From Pseudomonas phage Motto, in sequence record ON843697.1: 49,960 nt of DNA. The stretch is one strand, 5' to 3'. Below the pieces are notes generated by a model. The model made no database searches and was not told where the DNA came from. It was given only the letters and a program-made list of their open reading frames with translations. Shown piece by piece: positions 20,080-44,112 of this stretch. The translations under genes were made by a program, and so were the position numbers. Position 1 is the first letter of the stretch; every line of letters starts with the position of its first letter.

Positions 20080-20313
20080 TTATAGACTGCAATCTGAATT
20101 CTTGAAGTTGTCAACAGTAACCCACTGAAATCCGAATGGATAACCAGGCTTGACAAATGTTCGATCGTTAATGCGCTTAACGCCAAAAATAGCAACTTCA
20201 TAATCCATTCCGCCACTCTCATAAATTGCGCTGCATTCACGCTCAGGCATTGAAGAACAACCAATCAGAGCAAACGCAGCAACAAAAACACAGATAATTT
20301 TTTTCATCTTCAT
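20080..20313 (-). CDS. outer-membrane lipoprotein, Cor/Llp-like superinfection exclusion candidate
   Basis: 77 aa, signal peptide with lipobox LIGC; encoded antisense right after receptor-binding tail genes as cor in T1/phi80-like phages and llp in T5. Confidence 0.5.
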   Translation of the reverse strand: MKMKKIICVFVAAFALIGCSSMPERECSAIYESGGMDYEVAIFGVKRINDRTFVKPGYPFGFQWVTVDNFKNSDCSL

Positions 20314-20317
20314 ATCC

Positions 20318-20410
20318 TCAGAATCCGTTAAAGTTTCCAGCTAAGTTAATCACCCAAAGCATAAAGGCAACAACAGCAAAAGCAAGTACAACACTGATAA
20401 AGTTTTTCAT
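20318..20410 (-). CDS. small membrane peptide (30 aa, MKNFISVVLAFAVVAFMLWVINLAGNFNGF)
   Basis: not in ORF track; preceded by cassette -10 and RBS acggagacaagaaaATG; single TMD. Confidence 0.3.
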   Translation of the reverse strand: MKNFISVVLAFAVVAFMLWVINLAGNFNGF

Positions 20411-20439
20411 TTTCTTGTCTCCGTTTATCTTGTTGAGTT

Positions 20440-20483
20440 CATTATGCACATTGAGAACGTTTTTGTTTTAGCAATTCGTGCTG
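20440..20483 (-). promoter_or_regulatory. cassette copy (minus orientation, hairpin-less): CAGCACGAATTGCTAAAA-23 nt-CATAATG
   Basis: motif 20466-20483, box 20440-20447, drives the small peptide + lipoprotein. Confidence 0.5.
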
Positions 20484-20490
20484 TTGTTCT

Positions 20491-20692
20491 TTTTGTTCCT
20501 CATTGTTCGCTGGATGGCACTCCGCACTTTTGCACACGTTTAGACAACAAAAAGAACACCGAAATGCATAGATAATAATAACGGTGAGTAACTAATTTTT
20601 CTATATAATACATACATTTAAGTAAATTATTTATTTATATATATCTATATTTGTTCTTTCTTGTTTCTCTTGTTCAATTGGTATATGCACAC
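20491..20692 (+). repeat. ~200-bp direct repeat copy A (core 20587-20620 AGTAACTAATTTTTCTATATAATACATACATTTA)
   Basis: aligns with 41041-41232; AT-rich with TTGTTC/TTGTTTC reiterations downstream. Confidence 0.7.
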
Positions 20693-20896
20693 CTGATTTC
20701 TTATGAGAGCATCTATTGATTAATATTTAATCTATTCTGGCATTTTATGAAATGGTGTATAAATATAGGGTACTCCGCAGAATCGAGAACAGAGACAACA
20801 AGAAAATGAACATCAAATTTTCAATGACTTATGACTGATTTTGTTATCATTGTCATTCGAGAGCGTTAGCAAAACAAGAAGAACACATAAAAGCCA

Positions 20897-20924
20897 TTGA
20901 CAACGTATAGGTATGATGTAGAAT
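20897..20924 (+). promoter_or_regulatory. sigma70-like promoter TTGACA-16-TAGAAT for the recombination operon
   Basis: consensus -35, 16-nt spacer, -10 overlapping the track ATG at 20923. Confidence 0.5.
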
Positions 20925-20955
20925 GCACATCAACGACAACAAAGAGGATTCACAG

Positions 20956-22011
20956 ATGAGCGAATTTAAGGTTTTCACCTTTGACCAACTGACTAACGAC
21001 GAGTATCACGATCCTAAAGGATGGGCTGCTGAATACGTAAGCGGTTCTAACCTGGCTGAAATCTTTGCAACTTGTCCGGCTGCATGGAAGTTTAAGAAGC
21101 GTGAAGAAACCAAAGCACTTGTTTTCGGTACGCAGTCACATACCAACTTTCAGAGCGCAGAGCTTTTCAATCAGGAATACCGTAGAGCAACCAATCCAGA
21201 CGATGTAAAAGATCTCATTACAAGCCAGGCGGCATTAGCAGCGAAATTGAAATCTCTTGGCCTGACTGGTACAAGCGGGAAAACCTATCCAGATCTTATC
21301 AAAATCATGGTTGATAGCGATTTAGACTTAAAGGTTTTATGGCTGATTGAAATGATCGAAGAATGCCAGGCCAGAGCAGACGGAGTTCAACTTGTTCCGG
21401 CGAAAGATTACGACGCTTGCGTTACCATGCGCCGCGTACTGGAAAACATACCGGAGCACAACGCCTGTATGAATAGCCCAACAGCACAACGCGAGCTTTC
21501 AATTTTCGGCACTATAGGCGGCGTGAAAGTCAAAGTTAGATTGGATCACGTTGATGTTTGCAGTAATGTTTCAGTAAACAAGAAAACTGGCGTTGATCCT
21601 GATGGGTTCCCGATTTATGAGACTGTTGTTTATGACGAAGCAGTAGTTATTACAGACTACAAGACAACAGCAAGCGCTAACCCGAAAGACTTCTCACGAT
21701 CTGCTTTCGATCATGGTTATTACTTGAAGATGGCTTTGCAGCACGATTTATTCAAACGTGCATACCCTGGAGAGAAGCGGCCTGTTATTGTTCGCCTTCT
21801 TGCTCAGGAAAAGAAAGAGCCTTTTTTGCCGATCGCATTCCGCCTTACAGATGAGCAATTGCAGATCGGGCGATTACAATACATGGGCGTAATTAACCAG
21901 TTTGCAGAATGCAAGGCTCTTGACGTTTGGCCTGGATATTCAAACAACGCCGTTGAGGTTGAGTTAGAAACGCCAGCTTGGATCAGAAAGCAGTATGAGG
22001 GTTTTCTGTAA
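20956..22011 (+). CDS. PD-(D/E)XK family recombination exonuclease (RecE/RecB-Cas4-like)
   Basis: start ATG 20956 with RBS agagga; motifs RLDHVDV ... VITDYKT (D...D-x-K); precedes Erf and SSB. Confidence 0.6.
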   Translation: MSEFKVFTFDQLTNDEYHDPKGWAAEYVSGSNLAEIFATCPAAWKFKKREETKALVFGTQSHTNFQSAELFNQEYRRATNPDDVKDLITSQAALAAKLKSLGLTGTSGKTYPDLIKIMVDSDLDLKVLWLIEMIEECQARADGVQLVPAKDYDACVTMRRVLENIPEHNACMNSPTAQRELSIFGTIGGVKVKVRLDHVDVCSNVSVNKKTGVDPDGFPIYETVVYDEAVVITDYKTTASANPKDFSRSAFDHGYYLKMALQHDLFKRAYPGEKRPVIVRLLAQEKKEPFLPIAFRLTDEQLQIGRLQYMGVINQFAECKALDVWPGYSNNAVEVELETPAWIRKQYEGFL

Positions 22012-22053
22012 TAGCACGAATTGCTAAAAATAATTTACGGTTGGCTGTATAAT
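22012..22053 (+). promoter_or_regulatory. cassette copy (+): TAGCACGAATTGCTAAAA-21 nt hairpin-TATAAT
   Basis: motif begins 1 nt after exonuclease stop; leader CAACCAATCAGAGAGGAAACAAT-ATG. Confidence 0.5.
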
Positions 22054-25871: not shown

Positions 25872-26798
25872 TTACAGCAACGTATCCGCCTTGTAAAGCC
25901 TCCTTTCTATCCCTTTCTTAAAATTACCATCAATCGGGATCATAACCTCAAGTTGTCTTTCGTCGGCTGCAATCAATGTTTCTTTATCATCAACTCGGCA
26001 AACAACGCGCATTTTTCGATCTCCTTTGTAGCGATGAGCAACAATCTCAAGATTAGACGGAGTAAAACAGCACCAGATTTCTTGACCTGTTGCCATGTGA
26101 ATATGTTGCGCGTCGATCCAGTCAACACAAAGGTAAATTGTTTTATCCGTCTTTCCAGTTACCGCCACGCTTCCGCGTGTATAGTCTTTCGCGTAAAAGC
26201 TTTGTTGGCCTTCCTCATTAACGAAAAGAATGTTGCACATTTCATCATCCAACTCGTCAGAGTGTACAAGATGGCAAGGAATTGCGTGTATATGCTCATC
26301 ATAGCCACCAGGATTTGATTTCACACCAACTTGATATGATTCACCATCTAACGGATAAAACGCCTCAAAAACGCTTAGATGCGTTGCAGTCATGCTTTCT
26401 GTTTTGCTCATCACATCAACGCACTTTTCATGTGGAGCCTGAGCGCCGAAGTTATAGCCTGAGTCACGGCTTGCGATCTTGTTCGCTTTGTTCACAACCT
26501 CAACAGGAACCAGGTTAAGCCATTCGCCGAGAGTGTCTATTGCTTCACTGTAATTTTCTCCTCGAATACGCATGAACAATCCGATCCCTGAATCGTTGCC
26601 GCACTGGTTGCAGATGTTCCCGCCGTCGCCTTTCTCGTTGATTTTGTCTGTCCAACGAAAGCGATCCTTGCCGCCGCAATACGGGCATGGTTGATGCTTC
26701 CCGTTGAATGTCTGTTGCGGTATGTCACAGAGCTTCATGAGCGCCGCCGCCCACATGCCGCGCATTTTCGGGATCACTTCTTCTTTCTGGTAATGCAT
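25872..26798 (-). CDS. DNA primase (zinc-ribbon + TOPRIM-like)
   Basis: CPYCGGKDRFRWTD...CNQCG zinc ribbon near N-terminus; acidic TOPRIM-like core. Confidence 0.65.
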   Translation of the reverse strand: MHYQKEEVIPKMRGMWAAALMKLCDIPQQTFNGKHQPCPYCGGKDRFRWTDKINEKGDGGNICNQCGNDSGIGLFMRIRGENYSEAIDTLGEWLNLVPVEVVNKANKIASRDSGYNFGAQAPHEKCVDVMSKTESMTATHLSVFEAFYPLDGESYQVGVKSNPGGYDEHIHAIPCHLVHSDELDDEMCNILFVNEEGQQSFYAKDYTRGSVAVTGKTDKTIYLCVDWIDAQHIHMATGQEIWCCFTPSNLEIVAHRYKGDRKMRVVCRVDDKETLIAADERQLEVMIPIDGNFKKGIERRLYKADTLL

Positions 26799-26858: not shown

Positions 26859-27290
26859 TTAATCGTGCTCTTTGCGCTTGTATTCCATCATGTGGCGCTT
26901 TGTGCATTTCGTTGATTTAGCTTTCCCGTTGCTGTCAAAATCCAGATCTGGACGGCAGAAAGCCGCAGTGAATCCGGCGAAGCCGTTCATCTTTCTATGA
27001 TACTGGACGCGCCGCGCTAGTTCAGGCGAAATCATGCCGCGCACTTTATAAGCGTTTCTTACCGTGACATATGGCACTTTAAGCGCTCTTGCCATCGCGC
27101 CAATTCCGCCGTAAAACTCCAATACTTGCTCAAACCTTGCCTTTAGTCCGGCCTTTACTTCTGGCTTTAATACCCAGCGTGGCGGCGCTTTGCGTGGTTT
27201 CTTATCCTTCCCGCGCCTGGTTCCGTTGTTGCCATTGATGCAGCGCTTATCAATAGCGCCCGTTGATTCTGCGATCCGTGGATTGCTCAT
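26859..27290 (-). CDS. HTH DNA-binding protein (Cro/YdaS-like helix-turn-helix), candidate early regulator
   Basis: GIGAMARALKVPYVTVRNAYK HTH; very basic N-terminus; first leftward gene at a divergent hub. Confidence 0.5.
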   Translation of the reverse strand: MSNPRIAESTGAIDKRCINGNNGTRRGKDKKPRKAPPRWVLKPEVKAGLKARFEQVLEFYGGIGAMARALKVPYVTVRNAYKVRGMISPELARRVQYHRKMNGFAGFTAAFCRPDLDFDSNGKAKSTKCTKRHMMEYKRKEHD

Positions 27291-29409: not shown

Positions 29410-29799
29410 ATGTATCATGAATTTTACGACAAGAAAGCAACAGATACCCGTTCAGAAGATGCACACCAGGTTGATTCTATAGCGTGGTTGCGTTACAAGT
29501 TTCCGACCTGGATCGTGTTCCACGTTAACAACGAAGGAAAGAAGGGGATCGGTCAATCGGTAAAGGATCAGATGAAGGGGCTTTTAAAGGGCGTCCCTGA
29601 CATCCTGATAATTCCTGACAGAAGTCAATGCAAGTATGGATTTATCGCGATCGAGTTGAAGCGAGCAAAGAAATCACTTTCTCACGTATCTGATGAGCAA
29701 AAGAAATTCCTTGAGCGCGTGAATGAAAATGGCGGCTTTGGTGCTCTATGTTATGGCGTCGAGCAGGTTAAAGTGGCAATTGAAGAAGCGTTAAAATAG
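29410..29799 (+). CDS. VRR-NUC domain nuclease
   Basis: IAIELKRAKKSLSHVSDEQKKFLERVNENGGFGALCYG matches VRR-NUC core. Confidence 0.55.
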   Translation: MYHEFYDKKATDTRSEDAHQVDSIAWLRYKFPTWIVFHVNNEGKKGIGQSVKDQMKGLLKGVPDILIIPDRSQCKYGFIAIELKRAKKSLSHVSDEQKKFLERVNENGGFGALCYGVEQVKVAIEEALK

Positions 29800-29840
29800 C
29801 ACGAATTGCTAAAACAGCCGCAAAGGAATGCGGCATAATG
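29797..29840 (+). promoter_or_regulatory. cassette copy (+): TAGCACGAATTGCTAAAA-23-ATAATG, hairpin ccgcaaaggaatgcgg
   Basis: TAG of motif is the stop of the VRR-NUC gene. Confidence 0.55.
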
Positions 29841-30616: not shown

Positions 30617-30862
30617 ATGGATGATAAAGTTTTACAGTTAAATGAAGCTGGGTTATGGCTCATGTATCGCGCAATCGTATGTGAAACGATAGTTCAGAAT
30701 GAGCTTGAAGAATACTTTGATCGCGATTTGTGGTCTTGGACTGAATGCCTGGATGCAAGTTTTGAAGAAACGGAAGAGCTTGAGTTTTCGGACTGGCGAC
30801 AAAAAATCGTTGATGATTTGGAAGAATACATTTCATGCGAGATTAAAAGAAAAATGCATTGA
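30617..30862 (+). CDS. hypothetical acidic protein (81 aa)
   Basis: ATG 30617 with RBS ggag; track start 30563 is an upstream extension inside dam. Confidence 0.45.
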   Translation: MDDKVLQLNEAGLWLMYRAIVCETIVQNELEEYFDRDLWSWTECLDASFEETEELEFSDWRQKIVDDLEEYISCEIKRKMH

Positions 30863-30906
30863 TAGCACTTTTTGTTAAAAGCCCCGCAAGGGGCTTTGTT
30901 ATTATG
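30863..30906 (+). promoter_or_regulatory. cassette copy (+): TAGCACTTTTTGTTAAAA-23-ATTATG, hairpin gccccgcaaggggc
   Basis: seen directly. Confidence 0.55.
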
Positions 30907-30936
30907 TATCCAACGAAACGAATTGGAGACGCGAAC

Positions 30937-31134
30937 ATGAAAATTTACAGCAAAAAGGCTTTCAAACTTGCTCAAGAAATCGCTGAAATCGCAGTTAAAA
31001 GCGGAAGCAATAACGGAATGCAATTCGATTGGCATTGCGCAATGATTTTGCTTGAAGTTGCATATGGTTATCACAAAATGAATCCAGAAGATCAGAAGTG
31101 GAGTTATTACTACAATGAAGATCACGAAGGGTAA
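30937..31134 (+). CDS. hypothetical protein (65 aa)
   Basis: ATG after conserved leader CAACGAAACGAATTGGAGAC; track 30859 start reads through the cassette. Confidence 0.45.
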   Translation: MKIYSKKAFKLAQEIAEIAVKSGSNNGMQFDWHCAMILLEVAYGYHKMNPEDQKWSYYYNEDHEG

Positions 31135-31357
31135 AAAGGAAACTTGGGAATTAGCTAAAAAAGGCGGTCTTGATGAAGAGATCGCCAAAATAGCGCAATA
31201 TTTCGATATTAAAGACGTATGCGTTATTGTAGGTGATGAAATGGCGTATGTTGACGAGAAGCCGCGAAAGGTTCACCGTGTGCCAGCAATACCAACAAAG
31301 ATTGATTACAAATCAGTAATTGAGAAAACTAAAGAGCAAAGGAAATATTATAAATGA
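31115..31357 (+). CDS. hypothetical protein (80 aa)
   Basis: ORF overlapping previous gene end. Confidence 0.4.
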   Translation: MKITKGKKETWELAKKGGLDEEIAKIAQYFDIKDVCVIVGDEMAYVDEKPRKVHRVPAIPTKIDYKSVIEKTKEQRKYYK

Positions 31358-31437
31358 CGTCATTTAAATTTATTGGCTCTGTTATGTTGCCGCCTGTTAT
31401 CGCCTGGGTTATGATGTACGCCGTTGTAATGAAATAG
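31354..31437 (+). CDS. small hydrophobic peptide (27 aa MTSFKFIGSVMLPPVIAWVMMYAVVMK)
   Basis: not in ORF track; ATGA overlap with previous stop. Confidence 0.3.
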   Translation: MTSFKFIGSVMLPPVIAWVMMYAVVMK

Positions 31438-32567: not shown

Positions 32568-32667
32568 TAATCAATAAATTTAAAGGCTGGCTAAATGCTG
32601 GCCTTTTTTTGTTTTTGAGTTTAATATAATCAGGTTATTGACAATTTTTAATTTTAAGGATCTGATT

Positions 32668-33819: not shown

Positions 33820-34080
33820 TTATCCAAATGATCTCAAATTAAAATCTTCTTCCGCCTGGTTAGCTACGTTTGTGAACATTTGCTCAAGGCTTTCAAAACT
33901 CATTTTCTTTGCAATCTCATCGGCGCTAAATCCTTCATCTTCAAGTCTTTTTGCTTCACAGTAATGCATTTCAAGATTGTCTAAATATTTGTTTCCTGTT
34001 GGGATTGCTTCATCAATTTTGTCCCACACGATCCAGAAGTTTGTTTTATCCGCCGCCGCTAACACTATGCTGTTTTTCAT
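33820..34080 (-). CDS. hypothetical early protein (86 aa)
   Basis: ATG 34080 after leader ...CGAGGAAAACAAA; track 34113 start is the in-frame ATG inside the cassette box. Confidence 0.45.
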   Translation of the reverse strand: MKNSIVLAAADKTNFWIVWDKIDEAIPTGNKYLDNLEMHYCEAKRLEDEGFSADEIAKKMSFESLEQMFTNVANQAEEDFNLRSFG

Positions 34081-34110
34081 TTTGTTTTCCTCGATTCGTT
34101 TCGTTGAGTA

Positions 34111-34154
34111 CATAGTAGCAAACCCGCCGAAGCGGGTTTTAACAAAAAGTGCTA
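34111..34154 (-). promoter_or_regulatory. cassette copy (-): TAGCACTTTTTGTTAAAA-23-ACTATG, hairpin cccgcttcggcggg
   Basis: TAG of motif is stop of gene 34152..34343. Confidence 0.55.
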
Positions 34155-34343
34155 TTTTCTTCTCAACTCAATAAGCCAACGAACAACAATCTTTCTCGTT
34201 TCGATCCAATCTTCATCCGTGAAATCATCGTATGTTGGCTCAAGGTTTTTATAGTCTGGCGGTTCGTACCGTTCAGGATTAGGAAGGCTGCTTAAAATCT
34301 TCTTCCTCTTTGCGCTTTTGCGTTTATCCCTACCTTTACCCAT
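34152..34343 (-). CDS. hypothetical basic protein (63 aa)
   Basis: RBS aggtga; Lys/Arg-rich N-terminus. Confidence 0.45.
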   Translation of the reverse strand: MGKGRDKRKSAKRKKILSSLPNPERYEPPDYKNLEPTYDDFTDEDWIETRKIVVRWLIELRRK

Positions 34344-34860: not shown

Positions 34861-36444
34861 TTAAGCCCCCATTAAGCAAGGATTGACATATACTGATTTA
34901 CCAACGCTGCAAACATAATTTCTTTCTTCAAGCATTGGCAAGAGTTTTTCTTCAATGCGCTTCATGATCCCAGCCTGACCAACAAACGGCCTAACCTTAC
35001 GCGCACTTTCATAAATCGCTCTTGCGTTTGTTACGCCTTTGCTTTGCTTAGAAATTCGAATGATGATCTCAATCAGTTTCGTCATTTCCGCCTCATCGCC
35101 AGCATATCCAGATGCGTTAGCCGCGTTGATGTAGGTCTTGCTCAGTTCGCCGAAAATAACCAACGCTTCTTGCATTGTCTCCATTTCTATTTCGCGAGAC
35201 TTTTGCGGGTTCCCGTTATCGTTGAACCAGTTGCGGATCACATGCAGGACAGAAGCGATTCGGATCACTTGCTTATCCATCTTACCCAAAGCGCCGCGCA
35301 ACATTGTGTGAGAATACTTTCCACCGTCTGCTAAATCCGGTTCAAGTTCTTGCCGCGCCAGGTTCAGAACACGCATAGCACCTTTTGACGGTTTCAACAC
35401 AACGTTTTGCTCAGTCATTATGTTATGAACCAACTGGAAGTATTGCGCTTTCAGAGTCTTGTCAACTGGCGTATATTCCAGATCGCCATTCTCGTCAACG
35501 AATTTACGCTTGCCGAGAAACGTTTGCTCACGAACCAATAGGAAACGCTCACTAACACCGATACCACGTGCCCCTGCATCCATGATGCCGTTGATTGTCT
35601 CATCCTGGGCGATTACGCTCATGCAGCCTAACGCGATGAAACTCATGTTATTGTCTGCGTTTGCACGTGCTATAGAAACGTGACCACTATCCCATGCTTT
35701 TAGAACCAATTCGCTGTTGCTCTTGCGATCGCTGTTGGCATACGTCAAGCCGAGCAAGCTGTTAATACTCGTCGCTTCATCGGAGATTACCGCAAAGTTG
35801 CCTTGCCTGTTGTTAATCTTTGCCAGGCCTTCCGGCGTGGTATCGGATACAGGGAAAACTATATCGCAAAGCTTTTCTAACTTTTCCTCTAATTCTTCCT
35901 TTTCCTCATACAGAGCGCCTAACTCAGTTCCAGATCGTTCAGATTTAAGTTCTTTCTCAACGCCTTTTAGCTTTGCCATTACCTTTTTGCGTTCTTTCTT
36001 GCGTTGCTCGTTGATGCGCTCAACTTCACAAATCATAGGTGCAATCGCCAGGCTGTTAATTGCTGATTTCCCTGTTGATGGTGGCTGACTGGTAACAACA
36101 TAAAGCGCCGTTGGTTGTTCAGTGCCGTGATACTCAACAGTAAAGCGTCCGAGCATTGCGGAAGAAACGCAGCCGATAAAATGCATATATGCCGATGCTT
36201 CTGGAAACTGTACAGAATTCGCAATGTTACGCGCCAGCTTTCCGACTACATCAAAATCATTTCCGAGCGAAATCACAGGATAACGATCATTAGCGCCGCC
36301 AATGTCTTTTACAGGTTCCCAAAAGCTTGATGATTGACGATAGCCATTTGACTTAATCGCAACACGAAGCGGAGAAACGTTTTCCGATTCTGCGATGGCT
36401 AATACTTGCTGAGGTGTTAACTTGTTGGTGTCAAAATCAAACAT
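34861..36444 (-). CDS. P-loop NTPase of unknown function (Walker A SQPPSTGKS, Walker B FAVISDEA, coiled-coil insert between them)
   Basis: 527 aa; motifs read directly; preceded by its own cassette copy. Confidence 0.6.
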   Translation of the reverse strand: MFDFDTNKLTPQQVLAIAESENVSPLRVAIKSNGYRQSSSFWEPVKDIGGANDRYPVISLGNDFDVVGKLARNIANSVQFPEASAYMHFIGCVSSAMLGRFTVEYHGTEQPTALYVVTSQPPSTGKSAINSLAIAPMICEVERINEQRKKERKKVMAKLKGVEKELKSERSGTELGALYEEKEELEEKLEKLCDIVFPVSDTTPEGLAKINNRQGNFAVISDEATSINSLLGLTYANSDRKSNSELVLKAWDSGHVSIARANADNNMSFIALGCMSVIAQDETINGIMDAGARGIGVSERFLLVREQTFLGKRKFVDENGDLEYTPVDKTLKAQYFQLVHNIMTEQNVVLKPSKGAMRVLNLARQELEPDLADGGKYSHTMLRGALGKMDKQVIRIASVLHVIRNWFNDNGNPQKSREIEMETMQEALVIFGELSKTYINAANASGYAGDEAEMTKLIEIIIRISKQSKGVTNARAIYESARKVRPFVGQAGIMKRIEEKLLPMLEERNYVCSVGKSVYVNPCLMGA

Positions 36445-36471: not shown

Positions 36472-36515
36472 CATTATAGCGGCATTATGTTACCCTCTTT
36501 TAGCAATTTGTGCTA
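36472..36515 (-). promoter_or_regulatory. cassette copy (-): TAGCACAAATTGCTAAAA-23-ATAATG with box in hairpin loop gccgcTATAATGgcggc
   Basis: seen directly. Confidence 0.5.
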
Positions 36516-36761
36516 TTCGATCCGCTCGACTCTCGCCAGTAAATGACCGTCAATGATGCTTTTCGCTTCAAGCGTTACAGGGTCAAAATCAAGCGATCGG
36601 TGAAATGATGTACCAATCAGGAATGATGAATGCTTATCCTTCACCAGATAAACCACGTCGCCAGGCTTCATTGTGCTTATATCGCTGAACGTGCAACGAA
36701 AAGCATTTTGCATCATGATCCGCGATTTATGCGGAGTGTAGTCTTTTTCAGGTAGATTCAT
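36513..36761 (-). CDS. hypothetical protein (82 aa)
   Basis: ORF. Confidence 0.4.
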   Translation of the reverse strand: MNLPEKDYTPHKSRIMMQNAFRCTFSDISTMKPGDVVYLVKDKHSSFLIGTSFHRSLDFDPVTLEAKSIIDGHLLARVERIE

Positions 36762-37195: not shown

Positions 37196-37378
37196 TTATT
37201 TAAATAATGCAACAACTCGACCGGATGGGGTATGAGCGGATCTCATTTCAACATCAAAATGATATTCACTTTCATATTCACCCTCAATGCAAATCATGCC
37301 GTTAGTGTATTCTATTAATCTATACTCTTTGCCAGGCGTAAACAAAAAGGTCTCACTTGATATGCATTCAAATTTCAT
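37196..37378 (-). CDS. hypothetical protein (60 aa)
   Basis: ATG 37378 after conserved leader; track extends to 37411 through cassette box. Confidence 0.4.
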   Translation of the reverse strand: MKFECISSETFLFTPGKEYRLIEYTNGMICIEGEYESEYHFDVEMRSAHTPSGRVVALFK

Positions 37379-37408
37379 TTTGTTTTCCTCAGTTCGTTTC
37401 GTTAAAAG

Positions 37409-37452
37409 CATTATGCCGGATACGTGATCCGGCGTTTTAACAAAAAGTGCTA
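37409..37452 (-). promoter_or_regulatory. cassette copy (-): TAGCACTTTTTGTTAAAA-23-ATAATG, hairpin gccggatcacgtatccggc
   Basis: TAG is stop of methyltransferase gene. Confidence 0.55.
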
Positions 37453-38145
37453 TTTCTGATTTGCAAGGCAGACAGCCAGGGCGAAGCCGCGAGGCGTGAG
37501 AGAACGGATCAACTTTGTGCGTTTAGACTTTCCGCCGAGCTTTAGCCAGCCAGGATTAGCATTTCCAGTTGGCAACACTGCTTTAGTGTCTGGCATTTCA
37601 AAGCCGTTACCCGTCCAGAGGCAGGTTTTCTTTGTGTAAGCGTCACGCGCCGGAATGATTTCAGGGAAATGAGGATGCTTATCATCTTCCGGCAGGTATC
37701 CACCAAACCCGCAAGGATGGAAAATATAATCAGGTTGCCGCCACATCGTCGATAACACGCTGATCGGATTTTCTACCATGTACGGAACACCAAACCATTC
37801 CCCCAACTCACTTGCAATCATTGCCGTTTCTGTTGCCTTAATCTGGAATTCAGGATCACGCTCACGCTTTGCCGCGAAGTGACGCGAGCCACTAACAGCC
37901 AGGTCAGTGCAAGGCGGAAACGCAATGATGAAATCAGGAATTCCCCACTCTTTACTGATGGCGCGAACGGTAAAACGCCCATCAATCCAGACATTCACAT
38001 ACTCTATATTGGGATGGGTAATGCGCACCTGGTGATAGTCTCCATGATCAGCATCATCGTAATTGAAACAAATCACTTTGTGACCACGTTCCGCCCACGG
38101 AAGCGCGTCATAACCGGAACCGCTAAAAAGTGAAAAAATCAACAT
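37450..38145 (-). CDS. short DNA (cytosine-5)-methyltransferase-like protein
   Basis: motif I LFSGSGYD, motif IV FPPCTD (PC), ENP(ISVL) motif; start ATG 38145 with RBS gagagg (track start 38205 is further upstream). Confidence 0.5.
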   Translation of the reverse strand: MLIFSLFSGSGYDALPWAERGHKVICFNYDDADHGDYHQVRITHPNIEYVNVWIDGRFTVRAISKEWGIPDFIIAFPPCTDLAVSGSRHFAAKRERDPEFQIKATETAMIASELGEWFGVPYMVENPISVLSTMWRQPDYIFHPCGFGGYLPEDDKHPHFPEIIPARDAYTKKTCLWTGNGFEMPDTKAVLPTGNANPGWLKLGGKSKRTKLIRSLTPRGFALAVCLANQK

Positions 38146-39115: not shown

Positions 39116-39158
39116 TATAATATCAGAATGGTTCAATGTGTTTTAGCAATTCGTGCTC
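39116..39158 (-). promoter_or_regulatory. cassette copy (-) located inside the 3' end of gene 39123..39311 (AGAGCACGAATTGCTAAAA ... ATTATA)
   Basis: motif encodes EHELLK of the upstream protein. Confidence 0.4.
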
Positions 39159-39311
39159 TTTTACCGCGATGAACGGATATCCGCTTAAATCGCCGTTGCG
39201 ATACCTGGCAGACCTGATCCAGTTCCCGCACTTGCTCAGGTATAACGCTTTATGATGGCGATGGTTGACGCGGTAGAATCGACCGCTTTTAACATTCTTG
39301 AAGTATGTCAT
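39123..39311 (-). CDS. hypothetical basic protein (62 aa)
   Basis: ORF. Confidence 0.4.
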   Translation of the reverse strand: MTYFKNVKSGRFYRVNHRHHKALYLSKCGNWIRSARYRNGDLSGYPFIAVKEHELLKHIEPF

Positions 39312-39538
39312 AACCTGATCTCGTTAAACTCAATGAAGTCTTGCACGTAAGCGCATTCTTTCGGCGACTCCTGGCCTTTCAGCACTTCACACCCGTTATT
39401 CATCAAGTGGCAATAATGGCAAAGGTTGCCGCCGCAATTATCCTCTACAATTATGATCCCATTGCAAGCGCCACCGCCGAACCGATGCGGGAAATCGTAA
39501 GCACTGCAACGGCAGGTCACTTGATGGCGCTTTCGCAT
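39308..39538 (-). CDS. hypothetical Cys-rich protein (76 aa)
   Basis: multiple CxxC/CHxC pairs. Confidence 0.4.
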   Translation of the reverse strand: MRKRHQVTCRCSAYDFPHRFGGGACNGIIIVEDNCGGNLCHYCHLMNNGCEVLKGQESPKECAYVQDFIEFNEIRL

Positions 39539-39726
39539 TATTCGCTCTCCATCACCACAACCGGATCCAGACGCTCCAACACCACGCGGAAATCGGCGAA
39601 GAAATTCGGACGTTTCTCTGTTAAATCCGTGTAAGTGTTCAAGGCAAGCGTTGCGCTCTTGCCTTCAAAGCACATTACACGCTTTCCGGTTTCACGGCTT
39701 ATTGCTGTAACTCTGTATGTGTTCAT
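39538..39726 (-). CDS. hypothetical protein (62 aa)
   Basis: ORF. Confidence 0.4.
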   Translation of the reverse strand: MNTYRVTAISRETGKRVMCFEGKSATLALNTYTDLTEKRPNFFADFRVVLERLDPVVVMESE

Positions 39727-39998
39727 TTAATGGCCTCTTTTGCAATGAATGCGATAACTTCACGAAGGTGTTTCTCATCCTTGATTGTTGCCGGAAGTTC
39801 TTCCTTAACATCGTCTGACAGGTAGATATTACCGCGCCAGGTGAATGTTCCGTCACTGTTGATAAAATATGAGCACATCCATTCGCAATCGTTATCAGCT
39901 TCCCAGATGCAAAGCACATCCAGATCATCAAATTGCTCAACTGATAATTCAATCCCACGCTTGCCAGCAAAATTTGTTGTTGTCTTGGATACCATCAT
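39723..39998 (-). CDS. hypothetical acidic protein (91 aa)
   Basis: ATG after conserved leader. Confidence 0.45.
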   Translation of the reverse strand: MMVSKTTTNFAGKRGIELSVEQFDDLDVLCIWEADNDCEWMCSYFINSDGTFTWRGNIYLSDDVKEELPATIKDEKHLREVIAFIAKEAIK

Positions 39999-40029
39999 TT
40001 TGTTGTTCTCCAGTTCGTTTCGTTGAAGT

Positions 40030-40073
40030 AACTATATCAATTCGGCGCGATCCGGTTTTAACAAAAAGTGCTA
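40030..40073 (-). promoter_or_regulatory. cassette copy (-): TAGCACTTTTTGTTAAAA-23-ATAGTT
   Basis: TAG is stop of gene 40071..40289. Confidence 0.55.
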
Positions 40074-40289
40074 TTCAACAATGACGCGGTAAGCGTGATC
40101 GCTCACATACTCCAGGCTGATAACGCCACTCTTGATTAGCTCGTCAATCGTGGCGCTATGCCAACCAGTTTGCACCACGTCAGGAAAGTGATAGCTCATG
40201 CAGTATCCATGATGTCGCTGGATCACGATTTTGTTTTTGCTCTTTTTGAAGCACTCAAGAAAGCGCCTTTCATCGCGGCTCATAACCAT
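40071..40289 (-). CDS. hypothetical protein (72 aa)
   Basis: ORF. Confidence 0.4.
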   Translation of the reverse strand: MVMSRDERRFLECFKKSKNKIVIQRHHGYCMSYHFPDVVQTGWHSATIDELIKSGVISLEYVSDHAYRVIVE

Positions 40290-40678
40290 TCCCCCGACAC
40301 AATGAAGCGCGTGAAATCATCCTGATCGGTGATTGTGTCTTGACCATAGTCAGCCTTGCGATCCGCAATCCATGACATAAAGCGTGAGTTGCGTTGCGCC
40401 ACAGTACCGGAATAGACGTAATTGAATCCCATGTGTGCAATGAATGCCACAAAGCGGATCTGAAAACCTTGATTCTCAAGCATGGCCTGCTCTACCAGTG
40501 AGAAAAAGTTGTCACGATTAACTTTCGGCTTAACCGGAACCATAGTACCTAACTCGATCATGCGGTTGAACATTTCCAGATCCATACGCGCTTTAGATGT
40601 GATGTCACTATTGCCGTAGTAGATAACGCCATTCTCGATCCAGTAGGTCAGGCCATTGTAGGTGTTGGTGTATTTCAT
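40280..40678 (-). CDS. hypothetical protein (132 aa), first gene of leftward early block
   Basis: ATG 40678 after leader CATCGAAACGAACTGAGGAATTCACC. Confidence 0.45.
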   Translation of the reverse strand: MKYTNTYNGLTYWIENGVIYYGNSDITSKARMDLEMFNRMIELGTMVPVKPKVNRDNFFSLVEQAMLENQGFQIRFVAFIAHMGFNYVYSGTVAQRNSRFMSWIADRKADYGQDTITDQDDFTRFIVSGEWL

Positions 40679-40709
40679 GGTGAATTCCTCAGTTCGTTTC
40701 GATGAGCAC

Positions 40710-40753
40710 ATTATGCCTGATCGGTCTGTTGCTGTTTTAGCAAAAAGTGCTAT
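40710..40753 (-). promoter_or_regulatory. cassette copy (-): TAGCACTTTTTGCTAAAA-23-ATAATG
   Basis: first element of leftward block. Confidence 0.55.
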
Positions 40754-41040
40754 TGATGTGATTTGATTGTTAATGCTCGTTCTGATTACATTTTGTGCAT
40801 CTTGAGTGCATGATGATTATGATTAATCAATTTTGAGTGTGTGAGTGATTGCTCTCAATCAATCGACTCTGTTTGATTGTTTCAGTTGATGCAATAATTA
40901 AAAGGACTGTTGCGCCAGATGAAATAATAATTTTCTCGCCACGCATCAAATCACCCGAGAAGCCAGGCGGGGCAACCGTTCAGAGCGATTCCGGCTTGCA
41001 CATTCCAGGCTCATCCTGGCTCGCTCGTCCGGCGCTGTAG

Positions 41041-41232
41041 TCTTTTGTTCCGCGCCGTTCACTGGATGACACTCCGTAGTTCTCCGACAAAAAGAACAAT
41101 CAAATTGATGGTAATTACTAACCGTTAGTAACTAATAATTCTATATAATACATACACTTAAAGTTTTAATTATTTATATATATTTGTATTTGTTTCGTTC
41201 TTGTTCTCTATGTGTGGCTATATATAGACACC
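41041..41232 (+). repeat. ~200-bp direct repeat copy B (core 41127-41160 AGTAACTAATAATTCTATATAATACATACACTTA)
   Basis: aligns with 20491-20692. Confidence 0.7.
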
Positions 41233-41428
41233 CCATGTTGATTATTGGTTTATTTATATAGGGTGATGATAGTTGCGCCTGGTTACCAGGGTGCAATTTT
41301 TAGAAGTGTATTTATATATGGTATCCGGCGAATCGGCGGGAAAACGATAACGTAGTTAACACAATTTTGAACAGACTATATTAATCAGTAACTTACGATA
41401 ATTTGGTGTGCATAATATAATCAATTTT

Positions 41429-41449
41429 GTGTGACGGCATATTTCACAC
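41429..41449. promoter_or_regulatory. 21-bp palindrome GTGTGA-N9-TCACAC (operator-like)
   Basis: seen directly upstream of first rightward early gene. Confidence 0.35.
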
Positions 41450-41531
41450 GTTAGCAGAAAAGAAAAAACAATTGACACCCAGGATTGATGGCGCTATCGT
41501 ATGCGCAGACCAAACGAAAGGAGGAAAAACA

Positions 41532-41996
41532 ATGAACTACATCACCACTAAGCAGTTTTGCGACGGGTTGCGCAAAGAGGCCGAGCGCCTGGCGGCTGGC
41601 GAAAAAGAGGTTTCAGTGATTGAACTGATTCAGATCGAATGCTGGCTTGATGAGAATGACCGCGAAAAAATCAATCAGTCATACATTCGCACGATCATGA
41701 ATCGGCATCCAGCCATCAAGGAGATCGGCACTGTCAAGGTTAAGAAGTTCGACGGTAGCGATGGAGACGTTCCGCGTTATGAGATTACGCTGAATCGCGA
41801 GCCGAATCGCGTTGTGTACACGAAAGACGATATTCCGGCGATCCAGAAAAAAGCGGTTGATAAAGCGATCCGTTCCGTGATGGATATCAGTCCGAGCTTT
41901 GCACACCTGGACGACGAACAAATCATTGTGGCGGTCAAGGCCGTTGAACAGTACAAAGACCTGATCCGCAAAGTATTCGGCATTGGAGGAGAATAA
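41532..41996 (+). CDS. hypothetical early protein (154 aa)
   Basis: ATG with RBS aaggagg and AACGAAA leader; track start 41427 lies in regulatory region. Confidence 0.5.
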   Translation: MNYITTKQFCDGLRKEAERLAAGEKEVSVIELIQIECWLDENDREKINQSYIRTIMNRHPAIKEIGTVKVKKFDGSDGDVPRYEITLNREPNRVVYTKDDIPAIQKKAVDKAIRSVMDISPSFAHLDDEQIIVAVKAVEQYKDLIRKVFGIGGE

Positions 41997-42232: not shown

Positions 42233-42477
42233 TGAAAGTCAAGTGCATCAATAGCAGTTGCAATTGGTTCACCCAGGGGCGGGAATACTCCGCCCAACAA
42301 TATGACCACCTCACGATCGCAATCTTACAGGATGATATGTGCTCAGACCTGGGCGAAAACGATGATGCGTGGTATGCGACGAAAGCCAGGTTGCGCGGCG
42401 TAGAGGGTGATATGTACACGATACAGACGTTTAACCCGTTCCGATACCTTGCGGCGTTTACTCTGATTGGTGAATAG
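42232..42477 (+). CDS. hypothetical protein (81 aa)
   Basis: ORF. Confidence 0.4.
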   Translation: MKVKCINSSCNWFTQGREYSAQQYDHLTIAILQDDMCSDLGENDDAWYATKARLRGVEGDMYTIQTFNPFRYLAAFTLIGE

Positions 42478-42518
42478 CACTTTTTGTTAAAACTCATCCG
42501 GTGGATGCTGGCATAATG
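42475..42518 (+). promoter_or_regulatory. cassette copy (+): TAGCACTTTTTGTTAAAA-23-ATAATG
   Basis: TAG is stop of previous gene. Confidence 0.55.
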
Positions 42519-42547
42519 CATTCATCGGAACAAATGAGGAAAACAAA

Positions 42548-42706
42548 ATGGTTAAGTTAATCACCTGGGAACACGAAAACAGCCAGCCACAAACGAGAGA
42601 ATTTGAAACGGTATCGGCTTGCTATAACCTGGCGGCTAATGGCGGTTTCTACAAGGCGCAAATCGTAAACGATCAAGGAGTTGTAGACTATGAGTTTAAA
42701 GCGTGA
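42548..42706 (+). CDS. small protein (52 aa MVKLITWEHENSQ...)
   Basis: not in track; ATG after leader GAGGAAAACAAA. Confidence 0.3.
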   Translation: MVKLITWEHENSQPQTREFETVSACYNLAANGGFYKAQIVNDQGVVDYEFKA

Positions 42707-43093: not shown

Positions 43094-43548
43094 AGCACCT
43101 GGTATGCACTGCAACACGTTACGCTGATGATTGCGGATTAAACCATATCGGCGAATACGGACAATACCTGTTCTGCAAGAAGCCGGAAATCAAAAGAGAA
43201 TGGGGATACAAGCCAACGGATATCGAAATCAATAACGATGATATTCCATGCTACATCATGAAGCGGATCGGCAAGAACAAGTATTCTGCCTATGGCGACT
43301 CATCCGTTTACACTGCGATCCCAATGCGCAAGAGGCTAATCAACGCTTTCCAGGAGTGCGCGATCACATACGGTTGGATGAGCAAGCGCCAGGCGCGGAA
43401 GTGGGCGCGTTGTGTTGCGGATTGCTATTTCGAAAAGGATGGAAGCGCATCATGTGAAATGATCAGGACGTTCACTGATTGGTACAATGGCGACTACTGC
43501 CAGGCAAACTTTGACGATTTCGCAATGACGGAAATCAGCTATTGGTAA
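43090..43548 (+). CDS. hypothetical Cys-containing protein (152 aa)
   Basis: ORF. Confidence 0.45.
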   Translation: MKHLVCTATRYADDCGLNHIGEYGQYLFCKKPEIKREWGYKPTDIEINNDDIPCYIMKRIGKNKYSAYGDSSVYTAIPMRKRLINAFQECAITYGWMSKRQARKWARCVADCYFEKDGSASCEMIRTFTDWYNGDYCQANFDDFAMTEISYW

Positions 43549-43549
43549 A

Positions 43550-43598
43550 TAGCACTAAAAGCTAAAACACGATCGCGGGGTTATCGTATGGTAGCCCC
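43550..43598 (+). promoter_or_regulatory. cassette copy (+), variant TAGCACTAAAAGCTAAAA with weak box
   Basis: seen directly. Confidence 0.4.
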
Positions 43599-43842: not shown

Positions 43843-44084
43843 GTTGCTATATCATTCAAATCGCGCCAGTCGAGCAAATGCCAGTAGGCGCAACTCTGCA
43901 TTATATCCAGCGCAAAGATGGCGAATGGGACGAACTGAGATTCAAGCCGCGCCGCATTGAAGTACACGACGATGTTATTTGCCTGCTCTCCGGTTACGCT
44001 GGAGCATACAAGACAGGAAACAATTACGGCGCTGAAATAAACATAACTCGCGGTACAAAAATCAAATACAGCACGAATTGCTAA
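43839..44084 (+). CDS. hypothetical protein (81 aa)
   Basis: stop TAA lies inside cassette 18-mer. Confidence 0.4.
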   Translation: MSCYIIQIAPVEQMPVGATLHYIQRKDGEWDELRFKPRRIEVHDDVICLLSGYAGAYKTGNNYGAEINITRGTKIKYSTNC

Positions 44085-44112
44085 AACAGCCTGGAGCGGT
44101 TGCGATATAGTG
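44069..44112 (+). promoter_or_regulatory. cassette copy (+): CAGCACGAATTGCTAAAA-23-ATAGTG
   Basis: seen directly. Confidence 0.5.

What the first reader, a model, noticed from the sequence alone, without database searches (positions are those of the whole stretch)
20491..20692. ~200-bp direct repeat at the two divergent regulatory hubs (20491-20692 and 41041-41232) with a 34-bp near-identical AT-rich core
The two regions align over about 200 bp. The core is AGTAACTAAT(TT/AA)TTCTATATAATACATACA(T/C)TTA at 20587-20620 and 41127-41160, with 31 of 34 positions identical.

Both copies face rightward. Each sits just upstream of the first rightward early operon of its hub, recE/erf/ssb at the first and the 41532 block at the second.

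The core has a perfect TATAAT with an A/T-rich UP-like tract but a poor -35. It reads as a duplicated strong early promoter.

The repeats also flank a 20.5-kb segment, so homologous recombination between them would delete or invert the whole replication/lysis/fibre region.
Basis: seen in the sequence. Interest (0 to 1): 0.7.

Follow-up and report, generated by a model that had tools for sequence, protein, structure and literature searches.

The report
Paired control modules of T1-like phages
The two similar AT-rich stretches are real and are the upstream halves of a roughly 470-bp non-coding module that T1-like phages keep in exactly two copies, each ending in an ordinary early promoter; it is probably a protein-bound early-gene switch and possibly the still-unknown replication origin of this phage family.

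Summary
The repeat is real. Local alignment of 20480-20673 against 41034-41213 scores 137, against 23 +/- 2.7 for shuffles.

It is the upstream half of a ~470-bp module (20471-20944 and 41011-41483). Five complete genomes from three Drexlerviridae lineages each hold exactly two copies. Both hub regions of TLS and of a Klebsiella phage also carry one.

Module layout, in order:
- a phased array of short boxes (TTGTTC here)
- an A-tract plus an inverted box
- a conserved TATAAT with no -35
- about 40 bp of pure A/T, the least stable duplex in the genome
- a second box array
- a second AT box
- inverted boxes
- a canonical sigma-70 promoter, followed by recE or a DUF7174 gene

The box word changes with phage lineage, not with host, so the binder is probably phage-encoded.

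The near-identity in this phage comes from A-type sequence replacing the centre of a B-type module.

My best reading is a co-regulated tandem-promoter and operator region. A promoter-coupled, iteron-flanked replication origin is a serious rival and is not exclusive. The "strong early promoter" reading of the core is only partly supported. Function is untested.

The parts
20471..20944 (+). Module A, the whole conserved non-coding module upstream of recE
   Evidence: nhmmer profile of 10 aligned modules, E 7e-100; alignments
41011..41483 (+). Module B, the paralogous module upstream of the DUF7174 gene
   Evidence: nhmmer E 4.5e-75. Each of the five complete genomes searched holds exactly two matches
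20480..20673 (+).
   Evidence: Local alignment score 137 vs shuffles 23 +/- 2.7
41034..41213 (+).
20484..20508 (+). Upstream array of three TTGTTC boxes spaced 9-10 bp (starts 20484, 20493, 20503)
   Evidence: A pair of forward boxes exactly 10 bp apart occurs in 13 of 15 elements
41045..41062 (+). Upstream boxes of copy B: TTGTTC at 41045 and CGTTCAC at 41056, 10 bp apart
20547..20558 (+). A-tract plus inverted box, ACAAAAAGAACA
   Evidence: AAAAGAAC is invariant in all 10 aligned modules and about 43-fold enriched over genome background
41087..41098 (+). A-tract plus inverted box, ACAAAAAGAACA, copy B
20558..20589 (+). 32-nt clade-specific insertion that moves the A-tract box about three helical turns away from the TATAAT
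   Evidence: Present in window A and B, Vc1 A, STSR3 A and HCF1 A. Absent in Stevie, TLS, STSR3 B, Vc1 B and ERZ B
41098..41129 (+). The same 32-nt insertion in copy B (an A-type feature inside a B-type module)
20604..20609 (+). Conserved TATAAT (-10-like hexamer with no -35); inferred start near 20616
   Evidence: No -35 or TGn (and direct reading)
41144..41149 (+). Conserved TATAAT of copy B; inferred start near 41156
20593..20652 (.). Most A/T-rich and least stable duplex of the genome (55/60 A+T)
   Evidence: Ranked first at 30-, 40-, 60- and 100-bp windows. Nearest-neighbour dG -45.1 vs genome mean -68.5, sd 4.3
41134..41193 (.). Second most A/T-rich and second least stable duplex (53/60 A+T)
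   Evidence: dG -46.5
20651..20675 (+). Downstream array: TTGTTC, TGTTTC, TTGTTC
41191..41206 (+). Downstream array of copy B: TGTTTC, CGTTC, TTGTTC
20756..20812 (+). Second AT box (TGTATAAATATAGGG), then TCCGCA, then inverted boxes GAGAACA, GACAACA and TGAACA
41306..41373 (+). Second AT box (GTGTATTTATATATGG), then CCGGCG, then degenerate inverted boxes GAAAAC, GATAAC and GAACA
20897..20924 (+). Canonical sigma-70 promoter TTGACA-16-TAGAAT (11/12) for recE, preceded by the A-tract box AAGAAGAACACA
   Evidence: Orthologous to TLS P51
41472..41500 (+). Canonical sigma-70 promoter TTGACA-17-TATCGT (10/12) for the DUF7174 operon
   Evidence: Orthologous to TLS P01
20956..22011 (+). recE-like exonuclease, first gene after module A
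   Evidence: Vc1 annotation
41532..41996 (+). DUF7174 protein, first gene after module B; candidate box-binding protein with a winged-helix-like N-terminal domain
34861..36444 (-). DUF3987 MCM-like helicase with a C-terminal winged helix (residues about 450-520); alternative candidate binder
   Evidence: Pfam; model pLDDT 87.5; Foldseek hits to MCM2-7 and Orc1/Cdc6; PMC4889955
25872..26798 (-). Primase homologous to the N-terminal primase part of P4 alpha
   Evidence: tblastn with P4 alpha residues 26-243, E 1.8e-12; Zn_Ribbon_Prim

Best explanation
The two repeats are the upstream halves of an ancient pair of paralogous non-coding control modules of about 470 bp that T1-like phages keep in exactly two copies. 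One drives recE/erf/ssb. The other drives the early block that begins with a DUF7174 gene.

Proposed mechanism:
1. Right after infection, host sigma-70 RNA polymerase fires the canonical promoter at the 3' end of each module. This step is shown only as sequence.
2. A phage-encoded DNA-binding protein then occupies the helically phased, lineage-specific boxes (TTGTTC/GAACA here). The best candidate is the winged-helix-like DUF7174 product, the first gene transcribed from module B.
3. Boxes next to the canonical promoter would shut off or autoregulate both early operons together.
4. The box next to the TATAAT, which lacks a -35 and sits in the most easily melted DNA of the genome, would make it a factor-dependent second promoter. 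This is the tandem early/middle arrangement known from T4.

Steps 2-4 are inference.

The unusually high similarity of the two copies in this phage is not functional. It reflects replacement of the centre of the B module by A-type sequence.
For: Conservation:
- The profile finds exactly two copies in each of the five complete genomes searched: the window, Stevie, STSR3, Vc1 and (weakly) T1. It also matches both hub regions of the independent Klebsiella phage RCIP0096, at E 1e-40 and 1e-23. Both TLS hubs carry the module by alignment.
- Every intact copy has the orientation of the operon it precedes and ends in a sigma-70 promoter. The exception is Vc1's second copy, which is inverted and truncated before the promoter.
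- The TLS orthologues P01 and P51 are two of only three sigma-70 promoters accepted there.

Core and boxes:
- TATAAT is exact in 12 of 15 elements while neighbouring A/T sequence varies.
- Box layout is conserved: a forward pair 10 bp apart upstream, one inverted box with an A-tract before the TATAAT, forward boxes at +48 to +68, inverted boxes at +160 to +216 spaced 8-11 bp, and one more 16-24 bp upstream of the -35.
- The box word differs by lineage: TGTTCAC/TTGTTC in Tempevirinae and this clade, TGTTTC in RCIP0096, GTGTAACA and GATTAAC in T1. T1 and TLS share a host, which argues for a phage-encoded binder.
- TGTTC/GAACA density peaks at hub A, 9 per 500 bp against a mean of 1.4.

Candidate binder:
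- DUF7174 follows module B in every lineage examined and models as a winged-helix-like domain plus a helical hairpin.
- Its most conserved motif, SYIRTIMNR, is kept in lineages with TGTT(T)C boxes and is not alignable in T1.

Mosaic origin of the similarity:
- The centre of window B is 79-81% identical to A-type modules, including the 32-nt insertion, against 45-48% to B-type modules.
- Its downstream flank is orthologous to a short-type B module from a metagenomic relative.
Against: - No transcription start, protein binding or expression data exist for any T1-like phage in the literature I could search.
- The 32-nt insertion moves the A-tract box from about -31 to about -63 relative to the TATAAT in this clade. 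This fits poorly with a strict activator-at-minus-30 model.
- An extreme, 40-60 bp A/T tract that is the least stable DNA of the genome in four of the five complete genomes searched is more than a promoter needs. It is the classic mark of an unwinding element.
- The boxes are only 5-7 bp, and module B of the window has few perfect ones.
- Co-variation of its helix with the box word rests on three or four lineages.
Confidence: 0.45

Rival explanations
1. The two modules, and specifically the repeated upstream halves, are the replication origins of the phage. Phased iteron-like boxes flank a DNA-unwinding element. A built-in -10 supplies transcriptional activation or an R-loop primer, as in T4 oriF/oriG and the T7 origins. 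A winged-helix protein (DUF7174, or the C-terminal winged helix of the MCM-like DUF3987 helicase) binds the boxes and recruits the helicase and the P4-alpha-like primase. The two distant copies would act as two origins, or as an ori/crr-like pair as in satellite phage P4. This does not exclude a regulatory role.
For: - The cores are the first- and second-least stable DNA of the genome, more than 5 sd from the mean. In Stevie, T1 and STSR3 they are likewise the two most A/T-rich 60-bp windows.
- Box arrays spaced one helical turn apart lie on both sides of the A/T tract.
- The best box form in relatives, TGTTCAC, is 13-fold enriched. It equals the core of the P4 type-1 iteron TGTTCACC, which the P4 GenBank record annotates in ori and in crr, 4.7 kb apart, at 9-11 bp spacing.
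- The primase is homologous to P4 alpha residues 26-243.
- The DUF3987 helicase models as an MCM/Orc1-like AAA+ domain plus a winged helix. Kazlauskas et al. call the family replicative helicases.
- The TLS and SU57 papers state that no origin has been found in T1-like phages.
Against: - Every intact copy is coupled at a fixed distance and orientation to a sigma-70 promoter and an operon. That is what a regulatory region predicts and is not required of an origin.
- The boxes are much shorter than classical 17-22 bp iterons.
- The helicase family shows no detectable sequence relation to P4 alpha (hhalign probability 0.3%). The shared box word may therefore be coincidence.
- GC skew only follows transcription direction.
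- T1-like phages carry recE/erf/ssb and might start replication by recombination.
- There are no experimental data.
Confidence: 0.3
2. One reading: the core is simply a duplicated strong immediate-early sigma-70 promoter, with a perfect -10 and an A/T-rich UP-like tract compensating for a poor -35.
For: Perfect TATAAT conserved across lineages, A/T-rich surroundings, and the right orientation and position for early operons.
Against: - There is no -35 at 16-18 bp and no TGn in either copy, and the consensus scan does not call it.
- The -35 region is not conserved between lineages.
- A near-consensus promoter lies about 290 bp downstream in each module.
- This reading does not explain the phased lineage-specific boxes, the second AT box or the 470-bp extent.
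Confidence: 0.1
3. The module is a packaging or terminase recognition element. In the T1 and TLS records the genome end (pac end, with the terminal repeat) lies inside hub B, and small terminases often bind arrays of short repeats.
For: - The T1 record annotates positions 1-2800 as a repeat_region, taken here to be the terminal redundancy.
- The T1 and TLS records start about 215 bp upstream of the hub B core.
Against: - The record starts fall in the non-duplicated, GATTG-rich part of hub B (window 40755-41010), not in the module.
- A second full copy upstream of recE would create a second packaging series. From memory, none is described for T1.
- TATAAT and a sigma-70 promoter are not features of pac sites.
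Confidence: 0.05
4. The repeat encodes a small structured RNA or a short peptide, or it is a functionless scar of a recent duplication.
For: It is a long non-coding region with a possible promoter.
Against: - No Rfam family matches.
- Leader folds are not more stable than shuffles (z -1.7 and -1.4).
- The region downstream of the core is the least conserved part and is full of indels that are not multiples of three.
- No ORF is shared.
- Paired copies in T1, Tempevirinae, the Jhansiroadvirus clade and a Klebsiella phage rule out a recent scar.
Confidence: 0.03

Closest known systems
Satellite phage P4 ori plus crr (bipartite origin bound by the alpha primase-helicase)
   Same: - Two distant cis elements carry arrays of a short box at 9-11 bp spacing, in both orientations, next to A/T-rich DNA.
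- The P4 box TGTTCACC (GenBank annotation) shares its core with the TGTTCAC/TTGTTC boxes here.
- The phage primase is homologous to the alpha N-terminal domain.
   Different: - The helicase here is a separate MCM-like DUF3987 protein, not the SF3 domain of alpha, and there is no detectable alpha winged helix.
- The copies are 20.5 kb apart rather than 4.7 kb.
- Each intact copy is fused to a sigma-70 promoter and contains a conserved TATAAT.
- Replication function is untested.
T4 oriF(uvsY)/oriG(34) and the T7 primary and secondary origins (promoter followed by an A/T-rich unwinding element); from general knowledge
   Same: A promoter element is followed immediately by 40-60 bp of very A/T-rich, easily melted DNA. 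In T4 the promoter is a -10-only, activator-dependent middle promoter.
   Different: - There is no MotA box or phage RNA polymerase promoter.
- The flanking box arrays are absent from the T4 and T7 origins.
- There is no evidence of R-loop priming here.
T4 tandem early/middle promoters and the T7 A1-A2-A3 early promoter cluster; from general knowledge
   Same: Several promoter-like elements lie in tandem in a long non-coding leader in front of early operons and are read by host RNA polymerase. A canonical promoter is paired with a promoter that lacks a -35.
   Different: - The paralogous duplication at two loci, the lineage-specific phased boxes and the extreme A/T tract are not features of those clusters.
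- The activator, if there is one, is unknown.
Iteron plasmids (for example F RepE, or RK2): iterons, an A/T-rich region, inverted repeats over the rep promoter, then the rep gene; from general knowledge
   Different: - Boxes are 5-7 bp, not 17-22 bp.
- Module A is followed by recE, not by a binder gene.
The 21-22-nt direct repeats of T1-like phages (aaATAGCACnnnTTGnTAAAA; TLS, Stevie, T1)
   Same: Both are conserved, orientation-dependent intergenic elements of unknown function in the same phages. One of them (20464-20485, minus strand) abuts module A.
   Different: That is a different word with about 20 copies per genome, each in front of a gene, and it is already published. The module described here is not mentioned in those papers.

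Membership tests
Sigma-70 promoter (the repeat core) | -10 hexamer close to TATAAT | tested here: met
   TATAAT at 20604-20609 and 41144-41149. Exact in 12 of 15 elements from four lineages
Sigma-70 promoter (the repeat core) | -35 hexamer close to TTGACA, 16-18 bp upstream | tested here: not met
   CGGTGA/ACGGTG/AACGGT in A and CCGTTA/ACCGTT/AACCGT in B match at most 2 of 6. The scan does not report the site. The region is not conserved between lineages
Sigma-70 promoter (the repeat core) | Extended -10 (TGn) that could replace the -35 | tested here: not met
   The sequence before the hexamer is TTCTA in both copies
Sigma-70 promoter (the repeat core) | Mapped transcription start | not testable with these tools
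   No TSS data for T1-like phages found in the searchable literature
Sigma-70 promoter (3' end of each module) | -35 and -10 hexamers with 16-18 bp spacing | tested here: met
   TTGACA-16-TAGAAT, 11/12. TTGACA-17-TATCGT, 10/12. Orthologous to TLS P51 and P01
Iteron-type replication origin | Array of directly repeated initiator sites with helical phasing | tested here: inconclusive
   Arrays of 2-3 boxes at 9-10 bp spacing lie on both sides of the core. The boxes are only 5-7 bp and are degenerate in module B
Iteron-type replication origin | Adjacent A/T-rich unwinding element | tested here: met
   The two least stable 50-bp stretches of the genome, dG -45.1 and -46.5 against a mean of -68.5, sd 4.3. 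The two cores are also the two most A/T-rich 60-bp windows in Stevie, T1 and STSR3
Iteron-type replication origin | Initiator protein shown to bind the repeats | not testable with these tools
   Only candidates: DUF7174 and the winged helix of the DUF3987 helicase
Iteron-type replication origin | Replication shown to start there | not testable with these tools
   GC skew follows transcription only. The literature says the origin is unknown
P4 ori/crr system | Type-1 iteron TGTTCACC | tested here: inconclusive
   The window has six TTGTTC in A and two in B, plus one GTTCAC, but no full TGTTCAC. Relatives have TGTTCAC 13-fold enriched. The P4 word was confirmed from its record
P4 ori/crr system | Alpha protein: primase, SF3 helicase and winged-helix origin binder in one chain | tested here: not met
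   Only the primase part is homologous (E 1.8e-12). The helicase is MCM-like DUF3987, with hhalign probability 0.3% to alpha
Promoter-plus-unwinding-element origin (T4 oriF/oriG, T7) | Promoter directly upstream of an A/T-rich unwinding element | tested here: inconclusive
   The sequence arrangement is present, with TATAAT followed by about 40 bp of A/T. Promoter activity is unproven and the -35 is missing
Structured non-coding RNA | Match to a known family, or a fold more stable than shuffles with conserved structure | tested here: not met
   No Rfam match. z -1.7 and -1.4. The transcribed part is the most variable part
T1-like 21-nt direct repeat (ATAGCAC...TAAAA) | The consensus word, oriented with a downstream gene | tested here: not met
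   The repeat core does not contain it. The copy at 20464-20485 belongs to the leftward genes (family D7)

The most novel reading that the evidence does not exclude
The two modules are the long-sought replication origins of T1-like phages. Each would be a promoter-coupled origin in which a phage winged-helix protein binds helically phased pentamer or heptamer iterons on both sides of the most meltable DNA of the genome. That protein (DUF7174, or the winged helix of the MCM-like DUF3987 helicase) would load the MCM-like helicase and the P4-alpha-like primase. The two distant copies would work as twin origins or as a P4-like ori/crr pair, while also timing the two early operons.
Probability: 0.3. 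Interest if true: 0.75.

Novelty: new variant of a known kind. Interest (0 to 1): 0.55.

Why it matters
T1 is one of the seven classic T phages, and Drexlerviridae are common laboratory contaminants and therapy candidates. Even so, their origin of replication and their transcription programme are still unknown. The 2024 TLS paper reports finding no iterons and lists basic regulatory questions as open.

This analysis defines a conserved pair of modules with a precise layout. It names two or three candidate binding proteins and marks the two most meltable sites of the genome. That turns [quoted passage not shown] into a few direct experiments.

It also shows that the two modules exchange sequence. 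This matters for genome stability and for engineering these phages.

Tried and rejected
- **Megablast:** the two regions against phage records gave nothing. Sensitive blastn was needed.
- **IMG/VR pattern scans:** scans with TCTATATAATACATACA and with AAAAAGAACA-gap-CTATATAAT returned mostly chance hits in A/T-rich giant viruses.
- **The search for related loci with single proteins:** this found one locus and none.
- **Rfam:** no family matched.
- **RNA folding of the putative leaders:** not better than shuffles.
- **GC skew:** it only mirrors gene direction, so it gives no origin signal.
- **Profile comparison of the DUF3987 helicase family with P4 alpha:** negative. PDB sequence searches with the helicase and the primase were empty.
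- **The HTH regulator (26859-27290) as box binder:** its putative recognition helix is more alike between Stevie and T1, which have different boxes, than between Stevie and the window, which share a box. I ranked it last.
- **A literature search for TGTTCACC:** useless, as it returned primer sequences.
- **The T1 genome paper (Virology 2004):** not held, so I cannot exclude that it mentions these regions.
- **An earlier conclusion, now withdrawn:** I first concluded that Vc1 lacks module B. This was wrong; the copy is present but inverted and displaced.

Full report
**What the window is.** The 49,960-bp window is a complete genome of a T1-like siphophage (Drexlerviridae), written from the large terminase gene to the small one. 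Its left 25 kb is 87.7% identical, over 86% of its length, to Vibrio phage Vc1 (Jhansiroadvirus). It is about 77% identical to many Tempevirinae such as TLS and Stevie (annotation of Vc1).

Copy A of the finding lies between two small leftward genes (20080-20449, minus strand) and recE (ATG at 20956). Copy B lies between the leftward gene 40280-40711 and the rightward gene at 41532.

**The observation.**
The 34-nt core is 31/34 identical, and the longest exact run is 18 nt.
- A gapped local alignment joins 20480-20673 to 41034-41213 with score 137. Three hundred dinucleotide-preserving shuffles give 23.1 +/- 2.7, maximum 35. The repeat is therefore far above A/T-rich background.
- The homology continues, with indels, down to the promoters in front of the genes.
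- A profile built from ten aligned modules matches 20471-20944 and 41011-41483 and nothing else in the window.

**It is an old, family-wide pair, not a local duplication.**
- Stevie, TLS, STSR3 and T1 carry the same module at both places: upstream of recE, and between the leftward early genes and the first rightward gene.
- The profile finds exactly two copies in each of the five complete genomes searched. It also finds both hubs of Klebsiella phage RCIP0096, which was not used to build it, at E 1e-40 and 1e-23.
- The papers I could search describe the 21-22-nt direct repeats, the terminators and three sigma-70 promoters of these phages, but not this module. Two of them say no origin was found.
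- The T1 genome paper of 2004 was not available.

**Anatomy**. Reading rightwards:
1. Two or three forward boxes, 9-10 bp apart. These are TTGTTC at 20484, 20493 and 20503, and TTGTTC plus CGTTCAC at 41045 and 41056.
2. A TCCGCA-like word.
3. An A-tract with an inverted box, ACAAAAAGAACA. AAAAGAAC is invariant in all ten aligned modules.
4. (C)TATATAAT.
5. About 40 bp of pure A/T ending in TTATATATAT.
6. Three more forward boxes.
7. A variable stretch of about 80-100 bp.
8. A second AT box (GTATTTATATATGG-like), followed again by a TCCGCA or CCGGCG word.
9. Two or three inverted boxes, 8-11 bp apart.
10. ACTTACG.
11. Another A-tract plus inverted box.
12. Then, 16-24 bp further on, a near-consensus sigma-70 promoter: TTGACA-16-TAGAAT at 20897-20924, and TTGACA-17-TATCGT at 41472-41500.

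The TLS orthologues of these two promoters, P51 and P01, are two of the only three sigma-70 promoters accepted in that genome.

**The core.**
- TATAAT is exact in 12 of 15 elements, although the neighbouring A/T sequence differs between lineages.
- There is no -35 at 16-18 bp and no TGn, and the -35 region is not conserved.
- The two cores are the first- and second-most A/T-rich stretches of the whole genome at 30-, 40-, 60- and 100-bp windows.
- They are also the two least stable duplexes: nearest-neighbour dG is -45.1 and -46.5 kcal/mol per 50 steps, against a genome mean of -68.5, sd 4.3.
- In Stevie, T1 and STSR3 the two cores are likewise the two most A/T-rich 60-bp windows.

**The boxes.**
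- TGTTC/GAACA density peaks at hub A, with 9 per 500 bp against a mean of 1.4.
- In the ten aligned modules, AAAAGAAC is about 43-fold and TGTTCAC about 13-fold over genome background.
- The word changes with lineage while the layout stays the same. It is TGTTCAC/TTGTTC in Tempevirinae and this clade, TGTTTC/GAAACA in RCIP0096, and GTGTAACA plus GATTAAC in T1.
- T1 and TLS both grow on E. coli, so the binder is more likely a phage protein than a host factor. This is inference.

**Why the two copies are so alike in this phage.**
- Orthologous A modules resemble each other, and B modules resemble each other.
- The centre of window B (ACAAAAAGAACA to the downstream boxes, about 41087-41213) is 79-81% identical to the A modules of its clade. 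It shares their 32-nt insertion.
- That same centre is only 45-48% identical to B modules.
- Vc1 and STSR3 keep a long-type A and a short-type B.
- A metagenomic phage whose DUF7174 protein is 64% identical has a short-type B core. Its downstream part is clearly orthologous to that of window B.
- A 95%-identical relative already has the long core.
- So A-type sequence replaced the centre of a B module in the recent ancestry of this phage. The near-identical 34-mer is a product of that exchange plus constraint on the TATAAT.

**Candidate proteins.**
- The primase (25872-26798, minus strand) is homologous to residues 26-243 of P4 alpha (E 1.8e-12).
- The 527-aa DUF3987 protein (34861-36444, minus strand) models with pLDDT 87.5 as an MCM/Orc1-like AAA+ domain followed by a winged helix at residues about 450-520. 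This agrees with Kazlauskas et al. 2016, who call the family replicative helicases with a C-terminal winged helix. It shows no relation to P4 alpha by profile comparison.
- The first gene after module B is a DUF7174 protein in every lineage checked.
  - Its model (pLDDT 84.6) has a winged-helix-like N-terminal domain and a helical hairpin.
  - Its most conserved motif, SYIRTIMNR, is kept (AYMRTVINR) where boxes are TGTT(T)C and is not alignable in T1.
- The putative recognition helix of the HTH regulator does not track the box word.

**Interpretation.** The fixed coupling of every intact copy to a sigma-70 promoter and an operon points to a shared control region for the two early operons. So do the inverted boxes next to that promoter, and a winged-helix-like gene as first product of module B. 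I rate this reading most likely (0.45). In it, the TATAAT without a -35 acts as a factor-dependent second promoter.

The best box form equals the core of the P4 type-1 iteron, which the P4 record annotates in ori and crr. I rate this reading at 0.3, and it is not exclusive of the first. Nothing computable here separates the two readings. GC skew only follows transcription, and no TSS or replication data exist in the searchable literature.

An RNA gene, a peptide, a scar and a pac site are unlikely.

**On recombination.** The copies are direct, so exchange would delete or duplicate the 20.5 kb between them, not invert it. The deletion would remove the primase, both helicases, the lysis genes and the tail fibre (Vc1 annotation), so it could persist only as a defective particle.

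**Verdict.** The element is a new, undescribed variant of a known kind of control region (box arrays, an A/T tract and promoters). It is of moderate to good interest because it gives concrete handles on two open questions of T1 biology.

Noticed in passing
window 22010-22029, 29795-29814, 30860-30938, 42472-42550, 43548-43567, 44066-44144, 45431-45509, 46554-46573, 47439-47458 (+); 20464-20485, 34074-34156, 36496-36517, 37372-37454, 39139-39160, 39993-40075, 40672-40754 (-): About 16 or more copies of the 20-22-nt word AATAGCAC-N5-TGCTAAAA, always pointing towards a gene. Each is followed by a G+C-rich hairpin, then a (C/T)ATAATG -10-like word about 22 nt after TTGCTA, then a ribosome-binding site. 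The word itself is known from T1, TLS and Stevie and its function is unknown. The hairpin between the word and the -10-like element is not discussed in those texts.
   Followed up: partly
window 40755-41010: Hub B has an extra, non-duplicated stretch of about 250 bp rich in GATTG, TGATG and GTGAG words, with small direct and inverted repeats. A similar stretch is present in hub B of Stevie, TLS and T1. The T1 and TLS records, which begin at the packaging end (T1 positions 1-2800 are annotated as a repeat_region), start inside it, about 215 bp upstream of the core. It may hold the pac site.
   Followed up: partly
L001 (Vibrio phage Vc1) 23302-23651 minus strand, and 39201-41420: In the Vc1 record the B module is inverted, truncated before its sigma-70 promoter and fused to the last codons of the tail-fibre gene next to ssb. 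A tail-fibre-like gene sits where hub B should be, yet the 15 kb between them is collinear with the window. This is either a double rearrangement with a breakpoint inside the module or a misassembly.
   Followed up: partly
window 20558-20589 and 41098-41129: A 32-nt insertion (about three helical turns) lies between the A-tract box and the TATAAT. It is shared by the A modules of the Jhansiroadvirus-like clade (Vc1, STSR3, HCF1) and by both copies here. It contains (G/A)(G/A)TAAC, which might be a degenerate box near position -30.
   Followed up: no
window 41532-41996: DUF7174, a family with no assigned function, is the first gene after module B in all T1-like lineages checked. It models as a winged-helix-like domain plus a helical hairpin, so it may be a DNA-binding early protein.
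   Followed up: partly
window 25872-26798 and 34861-36444 (both minus strand): The replication proteins are split. One is a primase that matches only the N-terminal half of primase-helicase fusions (P4 alpha residues 26-243; PHROG profile positions 11-318 of 667). The other is a separate MCM-like DUF3987 helicase with a C-terminal winged helix.
   Followed up: yes
window 32604-32663 and 31315-31374: These are the third and fourth most A/T-rich 60-bp stretches of the genome (49/60 and 47/60). They lie in intergenic DNA before the lysis genes and before the phosphoesterase-like gene at 31446. The module profile does not match them.
   Followed up: no
window 20923-20955: The longest recE ORF starts at 20923, upstream of the start inferred from the promoter's -10 (20919-20924). 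The ATG at 20956, behind AAAGAGGA, is the likely start, as annotated in Vc1.
   Followed up: partly
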